From Enterobacteria phage vB_EcoM_IME339: 64,000 nucleotides of DNA. The position numbers and the translations under genes are program-made. This document shows, piece after piece, positions 230 through 5,376 of this stretch (its first letter is position 1; every line of letters starts with the position of its first letter). The stretch lies in the sequence record MH051915, one strand, 5' to 3'. The notes beneath the pieces are model-generated. The model worked only from the letters and a program-made list of their open reading frames with translations. It did not search any database and was not told where the DNA came from.

Positions 230-490
230 GATAATTACGGCGAACTGTTCAACTTCTTTATGAAATGCGTTTCAGAAGATTTCGGTCGTACAGTGAATGA
301 TATTAAAGTTATCGGTCCTGATCATCCGATGTTTGAAACTTACGCAGTAATGGGTAATGAAGATGGTCAGTGGTATACTGTAAAGGTTGTGATTAACATG
401 TTTACAGCAGAAGGTTATGTTAAACTGTCTTCTAAAGTTTACCACGATAACGACGAAATCGCAGAAGAATATTTCAATAATATGAAATAA
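227..490 (+). CDS. hypothetical protein (87 aa), first cargo gene behind cassette copy 1
   Basis: ORF track 215..490 (TTG); internal ATG at 227 follows GGAG SD. Confidence 0.5.
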   Translation: MDNYGELFNFFMKCVSEDFGRTVNDIKVIGPDHPMFETYAVMGNEDGQWYTVKVVINMFTAEGYVKLSSKVYHDNDEIAEEYFNNMK

Positions 491-545
491 GTTTACACAG
501 GCTCATGATTGAGATATTATGAGCCTGTAACTTGAGGAGAACATA

Positions 546-944
546 ATGAATATTGAAGATAAAGAAATGCGAGAGTTATATAATTCATTAACACCCGAAC
601 AACAAAAAGCTGCCAAAGAATTAGAGAAAGCTCTTAGTTTAAGCTTGACAAAAACTGATTGGGCCGCCGTGTATGAAGAAAAAATGAGGTCTGAAAATGA
701 AGCTATCGAGAGAAATGAATGGATTGTAAACACCAAGATTAGTTCTGATGGCTGCTCTGTTGAGGTGTCAGCTGTAGTTAAAGGTACTCATGGCGAAGAA
801 TCATGGGGCTGGCATAATGAGGCAAACAAATATATTGTTCTCTCAACGTCAAAAACTTATGGTCAAAAGGTTCCTGTATCCAAAGCTATTATTAAGCAAG
901 CTCAATGGGAAGCCAATGAAATCTGTCTCGCAAAAATGAAATAA
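546..944 (+). CDS. hypothetical protein (132 aa)
   Basis: ORF with GAGGAG SD; hairpin-embedded promoter-like GTTTACA upstream (491-526). Confidence 0.5.
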   Translation: MNIEDKEMRELYNSLTPEQQKAAKELEKALSLSLTKTDWAAVYEEKMRSENEAIERNEWIVNTKISSDGCSVEVSAVVKGTHGEESWGWHNEANKYIVLSTSKTYGQKVPVSKAIIKQAQWEANEICLAKMK

Positions 945-1018
945 CATGTTTACATTTCTCAAATAACAGGATATAATTCTACACGGATTTTAAATCTTAA
1001 TCAACCTAAGGAAATATT

Positions 1019-1612
1019 ATGAACACACTGAAGAAAATTGTTGAGTTTATTCGCACTAAACTTGGTTCTGCTATGGCTAAAAATCTATCTGTCGAAGAAC
1101 AGTATACTGCTGCAGCAGCAAAACTACTTGATAAAATTAAAGATCTAAAAACTGCTTCTGTTAAATCTATTAATGAAGAAAAACGTATTCGTGAACTTAT
1201 TGTCGAAAAGAATCGACAGGCTGAATCAAAAGAGCGTGAAATTCGTAAACTTCTTTCCGAAGGTCAAGATGTAACAATGCACGCTAAACTCGGCTTGCTA
1301 TATCGTCGAACGGCTGAGCAGTTGACTACTAAGGCTGACGGTTATGCTGAAATGCGAATTGAAATCGCTAAGAAAGTAGTTGAGTTAGATGATGCTCGTC
1401 AAGAACTTGCAGTTAAATTGGAATATATCCGTGAAACTCGTGCAGCAAATGCCCTTGGAATTAGTACTGCAGATGATGTAGTTGAAATCGCAGCGCTGAC
1501 TAAGGTTGATATTGAAGATACCCTTGCTCGAGTTGAAACCTTTAACGGTAATATTTCCGGGGTTGAAACTACCTCTGCCGATGTCCAGGAATATATTAAT
1601 TCTCTGAAATAA
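1019..1612 (+). CDS. coiled-coil protein (197 aa), possibly PspA/IM30-like
   Basis: Heptad-rich Lys/Glu sequence; followed by UUCG-hairpin terminator. PspA resemblance is by eye only. Confidence 0.5.
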
Positions 1613-1617
1613 TGATA

Positions 1618-1640
1618 AGGGGCTTCGGCCCCTATTACTT
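1618..1640 (+). terminator. intrinsic terminator-like hairpin (aggggCTTCGgcccct)
   Basis: GC stem with UUCG loop after ORF 1019..1612; weak T-run. Confidence 0.5.
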
Positions 1641-1653
1641 GGAGTAAATAGGA

Positions 1654-2259
1654 ATGAAAATGCAAAGTGATTTCAATTCAATGTTTGAAGAGTTCCAAAG
1701 ACAGGTTGATGTTCCAGACCAATTACTAAATGCTCTTAAACGTATGGCAGAAGGACGTAATTATTATTGGGGGTCTTCATATGAAACTGATGAAAGTCTT
1801 TCTGGATTTTATAAAGGTAAAAAGTCTTTAATACGTCCTGGAATACTTATTAAAAGTATTGAATCAATTCATTCATTGACATGTGATTTTGATGTTGAAT
1901 TTACTGATTTCATTTCTCCTGAATGGACAGTTTGTTATTTAAATGACGATTATGATTATCTTGGCGTTTATAGTTTAAGTGACGCATGGTTTAAACGTAA
2001 TTTACAAAAGTCAAATTTGTTCTATATTGATACTACGGTAAAATTTCAGGGAAAGAAATATTTCTTTACTCTTATAGTTGATTCTGAAACAAAGCATGAA
2101 AATAAACGTATTCTTAGCAAAAAGAATATCTTAACTATTGTTGATGATCTTTTTGATAAATTCGTGGAAAATCCTAATTTTGAAAGCGATTTATTATTAG
2201 AAAAATTTGTTAAGGAATGTAGAGAATATGTCAAAGCCATCACTATACCTTCCAAGTAA
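1654..2259 (+). CDS. hypothetical protein (201 aa) sharing C-terminal junction motif with the next three genes
   Basis: C-terminus ...EKFVKECRE resembles the ...ECRK(I/L)K tails of the following ORFs. Confidence 0.5.
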   Translation: MKMQSDFNSMFEEFQRQVDVPDQLLNALKRMAEGRNYYWGSSYETDESLSGFYKGKKSLIRPGILIKSIESIHSLTCDFDVEFTDFISPEWTVCYLNDDYDYLGVYSLSDAWFKRNLQKSNLFYIDTTVKFQGKKYFFTLIVDSETKHENKRILSKKNILTIVDDLFDKFVENPNFESDLLLEKFVKECREYVKAITIPSK

Positions 2260-2620
2260 ACCTGTGAAGTATGAATTAAAGCGCCAGCTAATTTCTACTG
2301 ATGTATTAATAGGTCCTGTTATACTCATATCATTTGTAATTCTATTGATTATTGGAGGTGTTTTAGATGTTATGACTGATATTGATTCTGGCGAAATACT
2401 TGTGTTAATGCTAATTCTTCCATTAATAGTTCCACTTTTATTAGTACCTGTAAATTGGATAGGATATTGGTATCAAGGAAGACATTATCGTAAACGTGTA
2501 CGTGATTGGAAAGCACAGTGTAAAAAGATTAAAAAGGAACACCAGCTTAAACTTGTTGAGTATGAATTTAATGAAATTATGAAATTTGTTAAGGAATCAC
2601 GATGCAAAAGCCAAAACTAA
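2228..2620 (+). CDS. small membrane protein (about 130 aa, two predicted TM helices), paralog family
   Basis: ORF track 2207..2620; internal ATG at 2228; hydrophobic segments; C-terminal ...FVKESRC. Confidence 0.45.
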   Translation: MSKPSLYLPSKPVKYELKRQLISTDVLIGPVILISFVILLIIGGVLDVMTDIDSGEILVLMLILPLIVPLLLVPVNWIGYWYQGRHYRKRVRDWKAQCKKIKKEHQLKLVEYEFNEIMKFVKESRCKSQN

Positions 2621-2964
2621 ATAAAGTCAAATATTCGTTCCCCGAGGCACTATTAATTCTTGCCGTGTCAGTATTTGCAGCTCTTGCTGGTAGTCTTATT
2701 GGATTGTTAATTGACTGTATTATTTTAAACATCGATGGTTCAGCAATTATAACAGAGGTTTGGAGTGAACTTCGTTTTACTATAGCGATTACATTATTTT
2801 CATTCTTTGGTACCATGCTATATTTTCATTATGATAATTTTAAAATAAATTGGCAAAGAAAAAAGGATTACAAAATACAATTAAAAGAATATAATAGCTA
2901 CATGTCTTATATTGAAAATGAATCAATGAAAGAGTTTGTGAGTGATTGCAGGAAAATCAAATGA
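2602..2964 (+). CDS. small membrane protein (120 aa), paralog family
   Basis: Two hydrophobic helices; C-terminus ...EFVSDCRKIK; stop overlaps next ATG (AAATGA). Confidence 0.5.
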   Translation: MQKPKLNKVKYSFPEALLILAVSVFAALAGSLIGLLIDCIILNIDGSAIITEVWSELRFTIAITLFSFFGTMLYFHYDNFKINWQRKKDYKIQLKEYNSYMSYIENESMKEFVSDCRKIK

Positions 2965-3449
2965 TTTTAAAAACTCGCTGGTATGATTTAGATGACGGGG
3001 ATGATGGCATTTCAGTTGATAGAGTTGACTGGAATGGCTGTTCCGAAGATATGAAAAATTTGCTGATTAGGGAGTTTAGAATGGGATATCAACCAGTTAA
3101 GCCATCTACTGCAACAGATGATAAATTCGTGTGTATTCATAATGGTCGCGCTAAATTAACGAACGCTGATTGGTTCACAGATAAGATTATGATTCTGTGG
3201 TATATTATTAGTTTTCCTGTGACATCATTTGTATTTTGCTTCTTTGGAGAAAGTCCAGTAGGCAGAACGGAAGATTGGATTCTTTTAATTATACTTGTTA
3301 ATATTTTTACAGCAGCAGTACTATCAGGAATATGGTGCGTGTTCATTGAAATGCCATGGCGGTTACGTAGGCAGCAAAAGATTTTTGATGAAAAGAAATA
3401 TACTCAAAATTTAAATAATTTTATCACTGAATGCAGGAAATTAAAATGA
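2961..3449 (+). CDS. small membrane protein (162 aa), paralog family
   Basis: ORF track 2946 (TTG); ATG at 2961; hydrophobic helices; C-terminus ...FITECRKLK overlapping nudE start. Confidence 0.5.
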   Translation: MILKTRWYDLDDGDDGISVDRVDWNGCSEDMKNLLIREFRMGYQPVKPSTATDDKFVCIHNGRAKLTNADWFTDKIMILWYIISFPVTSFVFCFFGESPVGRTEDWILLIILVNIFTAAVLSGIWCVFIEMPWRLRRQQKIFDEKKYTQNLNNFITECRKLK

Positions 3450-3886
3450 AAACATTATCAGCTGGTATTATCTTTATGACAGAAGATAAAGATTTATTTA
3501 TGGGACGAGTTACTGGTTCTCGTAAGCCTGGAATGATGGCACATCGTTGGGATATTCCAAAGGGGCGTGTAGAAAGTTCTGATTTGAATGCACTGGAAGC
3601 TGCAAAAAGAGAATGTTTAGAAGAGACTGGCTTTAGTAATTATAATCCAGACCTTCTAGAAGACCTAGGTGTATTTAAATATTCTAGTAATAAAGACTTA
3701 CAGTTGTTTTATTATACGATTCCAGTAGAGCATGAGATGTTTAGAAATTGCCATTGTGAGTCTTATTTTGAAAATAAAGATGGCGTTATGATTCCAGAGA
3801 TGGATGCTTTTGCTCTTATTCCTCGTACTCAGTGGCAATATGTGATGGCTCCTTCACTTTACCGAATAATGAACAGCCTCTTTTAA
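3446..3886 (+). CDS. nudE: Nudix hydrolase (T4 NudE / e.1-like)
   Basis: Nudix box GRVESSDLNALEAAKRECLEETGF; sits immediately upstream of lysozyme e as in T4. Confidence 0.8.
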   Translation: MKTLSAGIIFMTEDKDLFMGRVTGSRKPGMMAHRWDIPKGRVESSDLNALEAAKRECLEETGFSNYNPDLLEDLGVFKYSSNKDLQLFYYTIPVEHEMFRNCHCESYFENKDGVMIPEMDAFALIPRTQWQYVMAPSLYRIMNSLF

Positions 3887-4417
<531 letters not shown>

Positions 4418-4421
4418 AGTT

Positions 4422-4451
4422 GTTTACTTTCTCCTAGAATTGTGATAGTAT
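4422..4451 (+). promoter_or_regulatory. early promoter upstream of denV
   Basis: GTTTAC, 18-nt spacer, TAGTAT. Confidence 0.5.
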
Positions 4452-4476
4452 ATTCACAGTTACTTGGAGGGATAAA

Positions 4477-4893
4477 ATGACTCGTATTAATTTGACTTTA
4501 GTATCTGAACTTGCTGATCAACATTTAATCGCAGAATACCGTGAACTGCCGCGTGTTTTTGGTATAGTTCGTAAACATGTTGCAAATGGTAAACGGGTTA
4601 AAGATTTTAAAATATCTTCCGAGTTTATTTTAGGTTCTGGTCATGTTACGTTCTTTTATGATAAGTTAGAATTTTTGCGAAAGCGTCAATCAGACATTAT
4701 AACGGAATGCTTAAAACGTGGGTTTAGTATAAAAGATACTGAAGTTCCTGACATCAGCGATATTCCAGCAGAATGGAAAAATGATTATAATCCATGCAAA
4801 TCAGCTATTAAGTTGAGTCAACAACGACTCGATGAAAAAATTTTAATGAAGCCACACTGGTATAAATACTACGGTAAAAATATTTACATTTAA
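4477..4893 (+). CDS. denV: endonuclease V (pyrimidine dimer glycosylase)
   Basis: 138 aa, [28 protein letters not shown]; strong similarity to recalled T4 DenV. Confidence 0.93.
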
Positions 4894-4902
4894 AGGAAAC
4901 AC

Positions 4903-5376
4903 ATGAAAACATATCAAGAATTTATCACTGAAGCAGCTATTAATTCTCAAATTATTGCTGAATCTTTTACTGATCTTTTGAAATTTAAAAAAGGTCAAAA
5001 AATCACTGCTGTATTGGATGATGGTACAGAAGTTGAGATGGATGTACAGGGATATAATTATGCAGTAGATGGAAAACTGTATAATAAATCTCACGCTAAA
5101 TTTGATTCATTTGACGACTTTGTTAATACAGTTGAAGATGAAAAAACTCGTAGATCAATTTCAACTGGCGATGCTAAGGTTCTTATGGCGCACGGCCATG
5201 AACGTATCCGCGCCAAACAGAATAAAATGGGTGAAGATAATTTTGCATTAGTTGGTTATCAATCTGGTAAGCAAACTTATGGCTATCAGCGTACTGCTAC
5301 CATGTATAACAAAAATGGTAAAATCGCTTTCGTGAATAGCAAAGGCTCTATTCAGTACGTCAAATCATTCAAATAA
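4903..5376 (+). CDS. internal protein with capsid-targeting N-terminus (IPII/IPIII-like)
   Basis: Starts MKTYQEFITEA, the CTS motif of T4 internal proteins; basic 157-aa body. Lies after denV rather than between e and denV. Confidence 0.7.
   Translation: MKTYQEFITEAAINSQIIAESFTDLLKFKKGQKITAVLDDGTEVEMDVQGYNYAVDGKLYNKSHAKFDSFDDFVNTVEDEKTRRSISTGDAKVLMAHGHERIRAKQNKMGEDNFALVGYQSGKQTYGYQRTATMYNKNGKIAFVNSKGSIQYVKSFK

What the first reader, a model, noticed from the sequence alone, without database searches (positions are those of the whole stretch)
1019..1612. PspA/IM30-like coiled-coil protein upstream of the membrane-protein array
The 197-aa ORF is an all-helical Lys/Glu-rich coiled coil whose pattern resembles the PspA/Vipp1 (ESCRT-III-like) membrane-stress family. 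It is followed by a terminator and then the small membrane-protein paralogs, a context where a membrane-remodelling protein would make sense. The similarity is by eye only.
Basis: inference. Interest (0 to 1): 0.4.

Follow-up and report, generated by a model that had tools for sequence, protein, structure and literature searches.

The report
T4 e.6: phage-encoded PspA-like protein
The ORF is phage T4 gene e.6, and it is a real but very divergent relative of the bacterial membrane-repair protein PspA/Vipp1; two earlier papers already noted this in passing, and nobody has tested what it does.

Summary
The 197-aa ORF at 1019-1612 (+) is real. It is 196/197 identical to phage T4 e.6 (annotated "conserved hypothetical protein") and lies in the e.8...e.6-e.5-e.4-e.3-e.2-nudE-e-denV block of a Tequatrovirus. 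It is about 82% helical and 22% Lys+Glu.

The protein alone has no Pfam hit, and a shallow profile fails. A 49-sequence family profile hits only Vipp1/PspA at the top of PDB (E 8.8e-5, co-linear from residue 1). hhalign against PspA/Vipp1 gives 91-93% probability (score 46 against 33 or less in reversed and shuffled controls). Two Ackermannviridae-type family members pass Pfam's own PF04012 threshold, and one of them matches the window protein at BLASTP 1e-13. Two AlphaFold models give a short N-terminal helix plus a long hairpin, and their top 8-10 Foldseek PDB hits are all Vipp1/PspA, then archaeal ESCRT-III.

Homology is supported for alpha0-alpha3. The C-terminal third is not significant alone.

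The membrane-protein context argument is weak: e.5, with no membrane segment, intervenes, and the neighbourhood is not conserved in other phages.

The homology is already published (PMC7862958, 2021; PMC9409062, 2022). Function is untested. The most likely role is an early phage-made membrane and PMF stabiliser.

The parts
949..977 (+). Sigma-70-type promoter TTTACA-17 nt-TATAAT, about 40 nt upstream of the start codon. It probably acts as a T4 early promoter.
   Evidence: It is the best match (11 of 12) among all promoter-like sites in 400-3600, and the sequence is read. Function is inferred and no transcript data were examined.
1008..1012 (+). Shine-Dalgarno-like AAGGA, 6 nt before the ATG.
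   Evidence: Read directly from the sequence.
1019..1612 (+). CDS of 197 aa plus the TAA stop. It is the ortholog of T4 e.6 and a divergent PspA/IM30 (ESCRT-III superfamily) protein.
   Evidence: 196/197 identical to T4 e.6. phrog_1203 at E 1e-87. PspA homology.
1022..1084 (+). Codons 2-22: N-terminal cationic amphipathic helix, equivalent to PspA/Vipp1 alpha0. It is the predicted membrane-binding element.
   Evidence: Helix in both models, at low pLDDT. muH is 0.45 and net charge +3, against PspA 0.42 and Vipp1 0.57. Family mean muH is 0.42 and mean charge +2.9. It aligns to PspA residues 1-22.
1091..1453 (+). Codons 25-145: long antiparallel helical hairpin (helix 25-80, turn 81-85 'EGQDV', helix 86-145), equivalent to PspA alpha1 and alpha2/3. 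The most conserved block, [10 protein letters not shown] (88-97), aligns with the PspA 'LARaAL' block.
   Evidence: pLDDT is about 88-98 in the second model. Alignments. Conservation.
1454..1609 (+). Codons 146-197: flexible C-terminal region with short helices (151-159, 166-170, 186-196). It may be the counterpart of PspA alpha4/alpha5.
   Evidence: Helices. The global hhalign is co-linear to PspA residue 214, but this region tested alone is not significant (E 0.15).
1618..1633 (.). GC-rich hairpin AGGGGC-UUCG-GCCCCU between e.6 and e.5. It is a possible weak or partial terminator, or an RNA-stabilising hairpin.
   Evidence: Sequence read. The scan flags it only on the - strand because the + strand T tail is weak.

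Best explanation
The ORF is T4 gene e.6. It encodes a small cytoplasmic protein that is a highly divergent, phage-borne member of the PspA/IM30/Vipp1 branch of the ESCRT-III superfamily.

Shown here: homology over alpha0-alpha3, the predicted alpha0-plus-hairpin fold, a strong sigma-70-type promoter directly upstream, and restriction of the family to T4-like (Straboviridae) and Ackermannviridae phages.

Inferred: it is made early in infection and binds the inner membrane through its cationic amphipathic N-terminal helix. Like PspA/Vipp1, it would then self-assemble through the helical hairpin into a membrane-coating polymer. That polymer would seal or stabilise stressed inner membrane and preserve the proton-motive force for the rest of the infection cycle.

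The rationale rests on established knowledge rather than tests here. E. coli induces pspA through sigma-54/PspF only by new host transcription, and T4 shuts host transcription off within minutes. The phage therefore has to bring its own effector if it wants Psp-type protection against damage from DNA injection, superinfection, holin accumulation or membrane-targeting abortive-infection effectors.

No PspF, PspB or PspC counterpart accompanies the gene, so an effector-only role, without the regulatory role of PspA, is the simplest reading.
For: Identity with T4 e.6.

Sequence homology to PspA/Vipp1: PDB profile search with the top 8 hits all Vipp1/PspA and best E 8.8e-5, co-linear from residue 1. 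hhalign probability 91.5%, 92.6% and 92.9%, with controls far lower. Family members pass the PF04012 gathering score, and the collection's precomputed Pfam label for P0186 is PF04012. The window protein matches P0186 at BLASTP 1e-13 over 194 residues. P0186 hits annotated e.6 genes by tblastn at 1e-18 to 2e-9.

Fold: for the models, for Foldseek against PDB, and for BFVD, where Snf7 (7.5e-4) and a phage PspA/IM30 protein (3.4e-3) follow the family's own members.

Amphipathic cationic alpha0. Promoter. No transmembrane segment in e.6.

Independent HHpred reports: 99.9% to 4WHE_A for the e.6 homolog of phage Metamorpho (PMC7862958), and phrog_1203 reported as a PspA homolog (PMC9409062).
Against: The window protein alone gives no PF04012 hit at E up to 1 and no PDB hit. 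The shallow 29-sequence profile gives only E 2-4 against Vipp1 and 8% hhalign probability.

Foldseek E-values are modest (3e-4 to 5e-3), with TM about 0.45-0.53 and large RMSD, and long helical hairpins are easy to match.

The C-terminal third is not significantly similar on its own. The family-typical KAEDPxK junction motif is absent.

Amphipathicity of alpha0 is only moderate across the family: mean z is 1.4 against own shuffles, and 34% of members exceed z 1.64.

The gene neighbourhood is not conserved, so context says nothing about function.

No experimental data on e.6 were found in any search. Everything beyond homology and fold is inference.
Confidence: 0.55

Rival explanations
1. Dedicated anti-abortive-infection factor. 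e.6 uses the same PspA-like membrane-sealing chemistry, but its selected function is specifically to neutralise host defence effectors that kill by depolarising or permeabilising the inner membrane, such as Rex-type or transmembrane CBASS-type effectors. This is the hypothesis Gendre et al. proposed for the Kuttervirus homolog.
For: The hypothesis is published for phrog_1203 (PMC9409062). The gene behaves like an accessory gene: it sits in variable regions and in different neighbourhoods in T4, RB43 and Kuttervirus. According to that paper it is present in only 4 of 15 Kuttervirus genomes in PHROGs. It has a likely early promoter.
Against: No defence system has been shown to be countered. The gene is very widely and stably conserved in Tequatrovirus and relatives, with 1098 phage records and most at 60% identity or more. 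That pattern fits a general housekeeping benefit at least as well as an arms-race gene. Nothing here distinguishes this reading from the general membrane-maintenance model.
Confidence: 0.2
2. PspA mimic that manipulates the host Psp system instead of replacing it. e.6 would use its PspA-like hairpin to bind PspF (as PspA does when it represses it), to bind PspB/PspC, or to co-polymerise with and poison host PspA. Any of these would alter the host envelope-stress response or lysis behaviour.
For: Homology covers exactly the alpha0-alpha3 part of PspA. From established knowledge of E. coli PspA, that part carries both the membrane-binding and the PspF-interacting determinants. The divergent C-terminus could reflect loss of normal polymer contacts.
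Against: T4 shuts off host transcription anyway (established knowledge), so blocking PspF would add little. The family also occurs in phages of Aeromonas, Klebsiella, Serratia and other hosts, which would require conserved host interfaces. Identity to E. coli PspA is only about 13-16% in the aligned region. No interaction data exist.
Confidence: 0.12
3. Lysis-timing accessory. The PspA-like protein buffers the inner membrane against premature triggering by the T holin, for example during lysis inhibition. It would therefore set the length of the latent period and would not repair damage.
For: The PspA-like fold and membrane-binding helix. The locus lies a few genes upstream of the endolysin gene e. 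From general knowledge, holin triggering is PMF-dependent.
Against: The promoter looks early, not late. Linkage to e is not conserved: e.6 is near nrdD/nrdG in RB43 and near the ligase and helicase genes in Kuttervirus. No genetic link between e.6 and the r genes or t is known to me or was found in the searches.
Confidence: 0.08
4. A generic coiled-coil protein with an unrelated role, for example the 'host specificity protein' label carried by some database records. On this reading the resemblance to PspA is convergent or compositional.
For: The single sequence has no significant family hit. It gives many weak coiled-coil Pfam matches. Some GenBank and UniRef records call it 'host specificity protein'.
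Against: Reversed and shuffled controls score far lower. The alignment is co-linear from residue 1. Family members pass the curated PF04012 threshold. The specific ranking of Vipp1/PspA, then CdvB2 and Snf7, ahead of other helical bundles is reproduced with two models and two libraries. The gene has no receptor-binding or tail-fibre domain and appears to be driven by an early promoter. I found no experimental source for the 'host specificity' label.
Confidence: 0.05

Closest known systems
E. coli PspA (phage shock protein A; PDB 4WHE; Pfam PF04012)
   Same: The order of elements is the same: N-terminal amphipathic helix, long alpha1/alpha2-3 hairpin, then C-terminal helices. hhalign is co-linear from residue 1 (probability 91-93%). 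The most conserved block follows the hairpin tip in both proteins ([10 protein letters not shown] against DLARAAL). Size is similar, at 197 against 222 aa.
   Different: Identity is only about 13-16%. The KAEDPxK motif is absent. e.6 is about 25 residues shorter, and its C-terminal third is not significantly similar. It is phage-encoded, appears to be driven by a sigma-70-type early promoter instead of sigma-54/PspF, and has no pspBCDE or pspF partners nearby.
Cyanobacterial Vipp1/IM30 (Synechocystis sll0617; PDB 7O3W, 8QFV, 6ZVR and others)
   Same: It is the best sequence-profile hit in PDB (E 8.8e-5, 1-146 against 1-147) and the best Foldseek hit for both models. Both have a cationic amphipathic alpha0.
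   Different: e.6 lacks the Vipp1-specific C-terminal extension (alpha6). Polymer formation by e.6 has not been demonstrated.
Ackermannviridae PspA-like proteins (Kuttervirus FEC14 gp042, Salmonella phage SeF3a Gp_125; P0185 and P0186)
   Same: They belong to the same family (phrog_1203). They are full-length homologs of e.6, at BLASTP 1e-13 and family-profile E about 1e-20. They are also encoded near replication genes of T4-type.
   Different: They are only about 25% identical to e.6 and are less diverged from cellular PspA, since they pass the PF04012 gathering score. Their neighbourhood differs, and a membrane protein follows directly.
Canonical PspA genes carried by large phages (IMG/VR contigs L087-L094; Acinetobacter phage ME3 'PspA/IM30 family protein')
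   Same: They are phage-borne members of the same superfamily. ME3 appears among the BFVD Foldseek hits (3.4e-3).
   Different: They retain the KAEDPxK motif and are 23-33% identical to E. coli PspA. They look like recent captures of cellular genes, whereas the e.6 family is an old, strongly diverged phage lineage.
Archaeal and eukaryotic ESCRT-III (CdvB2, CdvB, Snf7, CHMP1B)
   Same: They share the helical-hairpin core. They rank directly after Vipp1/PspA in the Foldseek lists.
   Different: The similarity is at fold level only (E 0.03-0.5). No sequence signal was detected, and no Vps4 or MIM-type elements were identified.

Membership tests
PspA/IM30 family (Pfam PF04012) | The protein itself scores above the curated gathering threshold of PF04012 (33.9 bits). 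| tested here: not met
   The window protein has no PF04012 hit at E up to 1. No member of the 29-sequence close set shows it among the listed families.
PspA/IM30 family (Pfam PF04012) | Transitive homology: full-length homologs of the protein pass the PF04012 threshold. | tested here: met
   P0186 scores 39.0 bits and P0185 scores 35.1 bits against a gathering score of 33.9, covering profile positions 2-143. The window protein matches P0186 at BLASTP 1e-13 over 194 aa, and the family profile matches them at E about 1e-20.
PspA/IM30 family (Pfam PF04012) | Significant profile-level similarity to bona fide PspA/Vipp1, co-linear from the N-terminus. | tested here: met
   hmmsearch against PDB gives E 8.8e-5 with the top 8 hits all Vipp1/PspA. 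hhalign probability is 91.5-92.9%. Controls score 19 or less when reversed or shuffled, and 33 or less with 21-column blocks, against 46 for the real comparison.
PspA/IM30 family (Pfam PF04012) | N-terminal amphipathic helix alpha0 (membrane binding). | tested here: met
   Helix 2/3-22 appears in both models. muH is 0.45 and charge +3, comparable with PspA and Vipp1. Family mean muH is 0.42 and mean charge +2.9, but only 34% of members exceed z 1.64 against shuffles, so the feature is moderate.
PspA/IM30 family (Pfam PF04012) | Long alpha1/alpha2-3 coiled-coil hairpin. | tested here: met
   Helices 25-80 and 86-145 with pLDDT about 88-98. 6zvs_A aligns with TM 0.71 and rmsd 2.9 A over 123 columns.
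PspA/IM30 family (Pfam PF04012) | C-terminal helices alpha4/alpha5 that mediate polymer contacts. | tested here: inconclusive
   Short helices are predicted at 151-159, 166-170 and 186-196. The global alignment is co-linear, and the e.6 C-terminus YlxSLK falls on PspA LAaLK. The region tested alone gives E 0.15.
PspA/IM30 family (Pfam PF04012) | Conserved KAEDPxK motif at the alpha0/alpha1 junction. | tested here: not met
   The motif is invariant in all cellular and viral canonical PspA sequences collected. The e.6 family has kNxSxEDqY at the aligned position, with no Pro.
PspA/IM30 family (Pfam PF04012) | Assembly into rings, rods or carpets, and binding and protection of membranes. | not testable with these tools
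   This needs purified protein, electron microscopy and liposome assays. No multimer prediction was available.
Psp/Lia-type stress operon | Linked partner genes (PspB/PspC, PspF, LiaI or similar). | tested here: not met
   The six neighbouring ORFs have no Pfam hit to any Psp component and belong to PHROGs of unknown function. Neighbours differ in RB43 and Kuttervirus.
ESCRT-III superfamily (fold level) | ESCRT-III-type helical-hairpin core recognised by structure comparison. | tested here: met
   After Vipp1/PspA, the next hits are CdvB2, CdvB, Snf7 and CHMP1B. A giant-virus Snf7 hits at 7.5e-4 in BFVD. E-values are modest.

The most novel reading that the evidence does not exclude
T4 e.6 and its relatives in more than 1000 sequenced T4-like and Ackermannviridae phages form an ancient, phage-specific lineage of ESCRT-III-superfamily polymers. 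The phage would deploy them early to take over inner-membrane repair and PMF maintenance after it has silenced the host's own Psp response. They could also act as a broad counter-measure to membrane-depolarising abortive-infection effectors. That would be the first functionally defined viral PspA, and it would give a molecular explanation for the classical 'resealing' of T-even-infected cells.
Probability: 0.4. Interest if true: 0.6.

Novelty: already known. Interest (0 to 1): 0.3.

Why it matters
T4 is the best-studied lytic phage, yet e.6 is still labelled 'conserved hypothetical' in RefSeq, 'unknown function' in PHROGs and 'host specificity protein' in some records. Recognising it as a PspA/ESCRT-III-superfamily protein turns an orphan early gene into a directly testable one. 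The question is whether a lytic phage brings its own membrane-repair polymer because it has switched off the host's inducible one.

A positive answer would bear on how infected cells keep their proton-motive force, on lysis timing, and on phage escape from membrane-targeting defence systems. The inference itself is not new: PMC7862958 and PMC9409062 made it by HHpred.

This analysis adds four things:
- statistical controls on the profile match;
- the one-step sequence bridge through Ackermannviridae homologs that pass Pfam's own threshold;
- the finding that only alpha0-alpha3 is demonstrably homologous;
- evidence that the neighbouring membrane-protein genes give no conserved contextual support.

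Tried and rejected
**Single-sequence searches.** Pfam, PDB and NCBIfam gave no PspA signal.

**Shallow profile.** The 29-sequence close-homolog profile gave only E 2-4 against Vipp1 and 8% hhalign probability. It had to be replaced by a deeper alignment that includes distant representatives from the 1.84-billion-protein search.

**Attempts to get a diverse PspA profile.** The search for homologous proteins with E. coli PspA and a genome-contig scan both returned only near-identical enterobacterial PspA. A viral-contig scan supplied the needed diversity.

**Conserved-neighbour hypothesis.** I tested whether e.6 works with e.5 or with the downstream membrane proteins. The gene after the Kuttervirus homolog is unrelated to e.5 (BLASTP E 0.25). 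RB43 e.6 sits between nrdD and nrdG. The idea is rejected as unsupported, although a non-homologous membrane protein does follow the gene in Kuttervirus.

**C-terminal alpha4/alpha5 homology tested alone.** Not significant.

**'Host specificity protein' annotation.** No supporting domain or paper was found.

**Literature searches for experimental work on e.6.** Nothing beyond the two bioinformatic remarks. One search failed because one search term was too short.

**The - strand ORF at 1399-1665 (88 aa).** It overlaps e.6 and was treated as spurious, with no further support sought.

Full report
**What is there.** The window is from a Tequatrovirus (T4-type) phage. Its first 4.5 kb are 94-96% identical to many E. 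coli and Shigella T4-like phages. The gene order matches T4: e.8, a non-T4 ORF, e.6, e.5, e.4, e.3, e.2, nudE, e (lysozyme), denV.

The finding's ORF, 1019-1612 on the + strand, is an ATG-to-TAA frame of 197 codons. An AAGGA ribosome-binding site lies 6 nt upstream, and a second in-frame stop follows. The product is 196/197 identical to T4 e.6, NP_049742.1, annotated 'e.6 conserved hypothetical protein'. It matches phrog_1203 ('unknown function') at E 1e-87. tblastn finds it in 1098 of 50,697 phage records, mostly from phages of Escherichia, Klebsiella, Shigella, Aeromonas and Enterobacter.

Across 1.84 billion representative proteins, the family has only 45 representatives, and the full-length ones are all about 195-209 aa.

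The best sigma-70-type promoter match in the region, TTTACA-17-TATAAT at 949-977 (11 of 12), lies directly upstream. That fits a T4 early gene, though this is an inference and no transcript data were seen.

A GC-rich UUCG-loop hairpin follows at 1618-1633. Its + strand T tail is weak, and the scan flags it only on the - strand.

**The observation.** The protein is about 82% helical in the AlphaFold models and contains 21.8% Lys+Glu and 34% charged residues, so the description is correct. The context statement is imprecise. The next gene is e.5 (201 aa), which has no hydrophobic segment. The membrane proteins e.4, e.3 and e.2 come after it.

**Is it PspA-like?** Direct searches fail. There is no Pfam family above noise and no PF04012 hit, and no PDB sequence hit.

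A profile of 29 close homologs (47% identity or more) placed Synechocystis Vipp1 among sub-threshold PDB hits, at E 2-4. The alignment was strikingly co-linear, 4-142 against 4-144. hhalign against a small PspA/Vipp1 alignment gave only 8% probability.

I then added the distant family representatives from the exhaustive profile search, giving a 49-sequence alignment (A3). Several of these begin MGILSRIKEF or MSIFQRLKSIF, much like PspA MGIFSRFADIV. With A3:
- hmmsearch against all PDB sequences returns eight Vipp1/PspA entries as the eight best hits. The best is E 8.8e-5, aligning 1-146 to 1-147. The first unrelated protein appears at 2.9e-3.
- hhalign against PspA/Vipp1 gives 91.5% probability over 155 columns.
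- With a more diverse PspA profile, which includes eight canonical PspA genes recovered from IMG/VR viral contigs, hhalign gives 92.6% locally (1-138 against 1-133) and 92.9% in global mode. The global alignment is co-linear over 1-197 against 1-214.

Coiled coils can produce spurious profile matches, so I ran controls. The real score is 46.2. Reversed profiles give 19.0 and 19.4. Thirty column shuffles reach at most 17.2, 7-column block shuffles at most 18.4, and 21-column block shuffles at most 32.7.

**A one-step sequence bridge.** Scanning family members individually against Pfam, P0186 (39.0 bits, E 8.9e-10) and P0185 (35.1 bits) exceed the PF04012 PspA_IM30 gathering score of 33.9 bits, covering profile positions 2-143. 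P0187 scores 22.3 bits, below the threshold.

P0186 is encoded next to uvsX- and gp41-type genes. Its close relatives are in phages such as Kuttervirus FEC14 (Ackermannviridae). It aligns with the window protein over 194 residues at BLASTP E 1e-13. It also hits annotated e.6 genes of T4-like phages by tblastn: RB43 at 1e-18 and 44RR2.8t at 2e-9.

**Structure.** Two AlphaFold2 models were made, from the 29- and 49-sequence alignments, with mean pLDDT 73 and 81. They agree on an N-terminal helix at 2/3-22 (low confidence, as expected for a free amphipathic helix), a long hairpin of helices 25-80 and 86-145 (pLDDT about 88-98 in the second model), and a flexible tail with short helices.

Foldseek against 350,542 PDB chains puts Vipp1/PspA structures in the top 8 for model 1 (best E 2.8e-4) and the top 10 for model 2 (best E 1e-3). 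Archaeal ESCRT-III CdvB2 comes next. 6zvs_A superposes with TM 0.71 and rmsd 2.9 A over 123 columns.

In the viral BFVD library, the hits after the family's own members are a giant-virus Snf7 protein (7.5e-4) and an Acinetobacter phage 'PspA/IM30 family protein' (3.4e-3).

Residues 2-19 form a cationic amphipathic helix, with muH 0.45 and charge +3, against 0.42 for PspA and 0.57 for Vipp1. Across the family, muH averages 0.42 and charge +2.9, but only a third of members are clearly above their own shuffles.

**Limits of the homology claim.** Statistical support covers alpha0-alpha3. The C-terminal third tested alone is not significant (E 0.15), although the global alignment places the e.6 C-terminus EYINSLK on PspA EQLAQLK.

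The KAEDPxK motif is invariant in every canonical PspA collected. In e.6 it is replaced by KNxSxEDQY. The window protein itself does not pass PF04012.

It is therefore best described as a strongly diverged, phage-specific branch of the PspA/IM30 family within the ESCRT-III superfamily.

**Context.** In RB43, e.6 lies between nrdD and nrdG. In Kuttervirus it lies between replication genes and the DNA ligase gene. The Kuttervirus downstream gene is unrelated to e.5.

A non-homologous membrane protein does follow the gene in Kuttervirus. Small membrane proteins are common in these regions, however, so I give this little weight.

No PspB, PspC or PspF-like gene is nearby.

**Prior knowledge.** The link is already in print. 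The genome announcement of Klebsiella phage Metamorpho states that gp163 is a homolog of T4 e.6 and that HHpred aligns it at 99.9% with E. coli PspA 4WHE_A (PMC7862958). Gendre et al. 2022 state that phrog_1203 (Gp_125 of Kuttervirus SeF3a) is homologous to PspA, and they propose an anti-abortive-infection role (PMC9409062).

Neither the 2024 PSP evolutionary survey nor the 2025 ESCRT-III review describes phage-encoded PspA in the passages that match 'phage', 'virus' or 'viral'. I found no experimental study of e.6.

**Mechanism (inferred).** I think the most likely role is an effector-only PspA. It would be made early, bind the inner membrane through alpha0, and polymerise through the hairpin to stabilise the membrane and preserve PMF.

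The logic rests on established biology rather than on tests here. Host pspA induction needs sigma-54/PspF-dependent transcription, and T4 abolishes host transcription. T4 infection also imposes membrane insults through DNA injection, superinfection, holin accumulation and membrane-acting Abi effectors.

The rivals are:
- a dedicated anti-Abi factor, with the same chemistry but a narrower selected function;
- a PspA mimic that targets PspF, PspB/PspC or host PspA;
- a lysis-timing buffer;
- an unrelated coiled coil, which I now consider unlikely.

**Verdict.** Interest is modest. The open and worthwhile part is the untested function.

Noticed in passing
window 1654-3449 (e.5, e.4, e.3, e.2): Four consecutive genes end in a similar C-terminal peptide: e.5 ...EKFVKECREYV..., e.4 ...MKFVKESRCKSQN, e.3 ...KEFVSDCRKIK and e.2 ...NNFITECRKLK. 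F, R and K are invariant in the alignment. The e.4/e.3, e.3/e.2 and e.2/nudE junctions each overlap by exactly 19 nt. DNA repeats lie at the junctions: 2935-2964 against 3420-3449 (80% identical), and 2203-2218 identical to 2582-2597. e.4, e.3 and e.2 have predicted membrane segments and e.5 has none. This looks like a tandem array sharing a C-terminal module or a translational-coupling junction.
   Followed up: partly
window 546-944 (+): A 132-aa ORF (phrog_8232, unknown function) occupies the slot where T4 has e.7 (111 aa). It is not homologous to e.7 (BLASTP E 3.9), so this slot immediately upstream of the e.6 promoter holds a different gene. A second promoter-like site, TTTACA-17-TATTAT, lies at 492-520.
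   Followed up: partly
window 3923-5376: Lysozyme gene e (3923-4417) is followed directly by denV (4477-4893). The internal-protein genes ipIII and ipII, which separate e from the denV side in T4, are absent. A 157-aa ORF at 4903-5376 sits where phage ime09 is annotated with Ip4.
   Followed up: no
IMG/VR contigs L087-L094: Eight viral contigs of 7-360 kb, several of jumbo-phage size, carry canonical PspA genes with an intact KAEDPxK motif. Some have a 14-residue insertion at the hairpin tip. Phages have therefore acquired PspA at least twice: the old e.6 lineage and more recent captures.
   Followed up: no
L086 4147-4725 (Kuttervirus FEC14 gp041) and L083 6650-7210: In Ackermannviridae the PspA-like gene is followed directly by a gene of about 190 aa with an N-terminal transmembrane segment, annotated 'membrane protein'. 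It is unrelated to T4 e.5. It could be a membrane anchor or partner, by analogy with LiaI and LiaH, but this was not tested.
   Followed up: partly
window 1399-1665 (-): An 88-aa TTG-initiated ORF lies antisense to the 3' end of e.6 and spans the intergenic hairpin. No evidence that it is a gene was sought, and it is probably spurious.
   Followed up: no
database annotations of e.6 homologs: Several GenBank and UniRef records call this protein 'host specificity protein', and one BFVD homolog is named 'Tail completion protein'. I found nothing in the sequence, the fold or the literature to support either label, so they appear to be propagated mis-annotations.
   Followed up: partly
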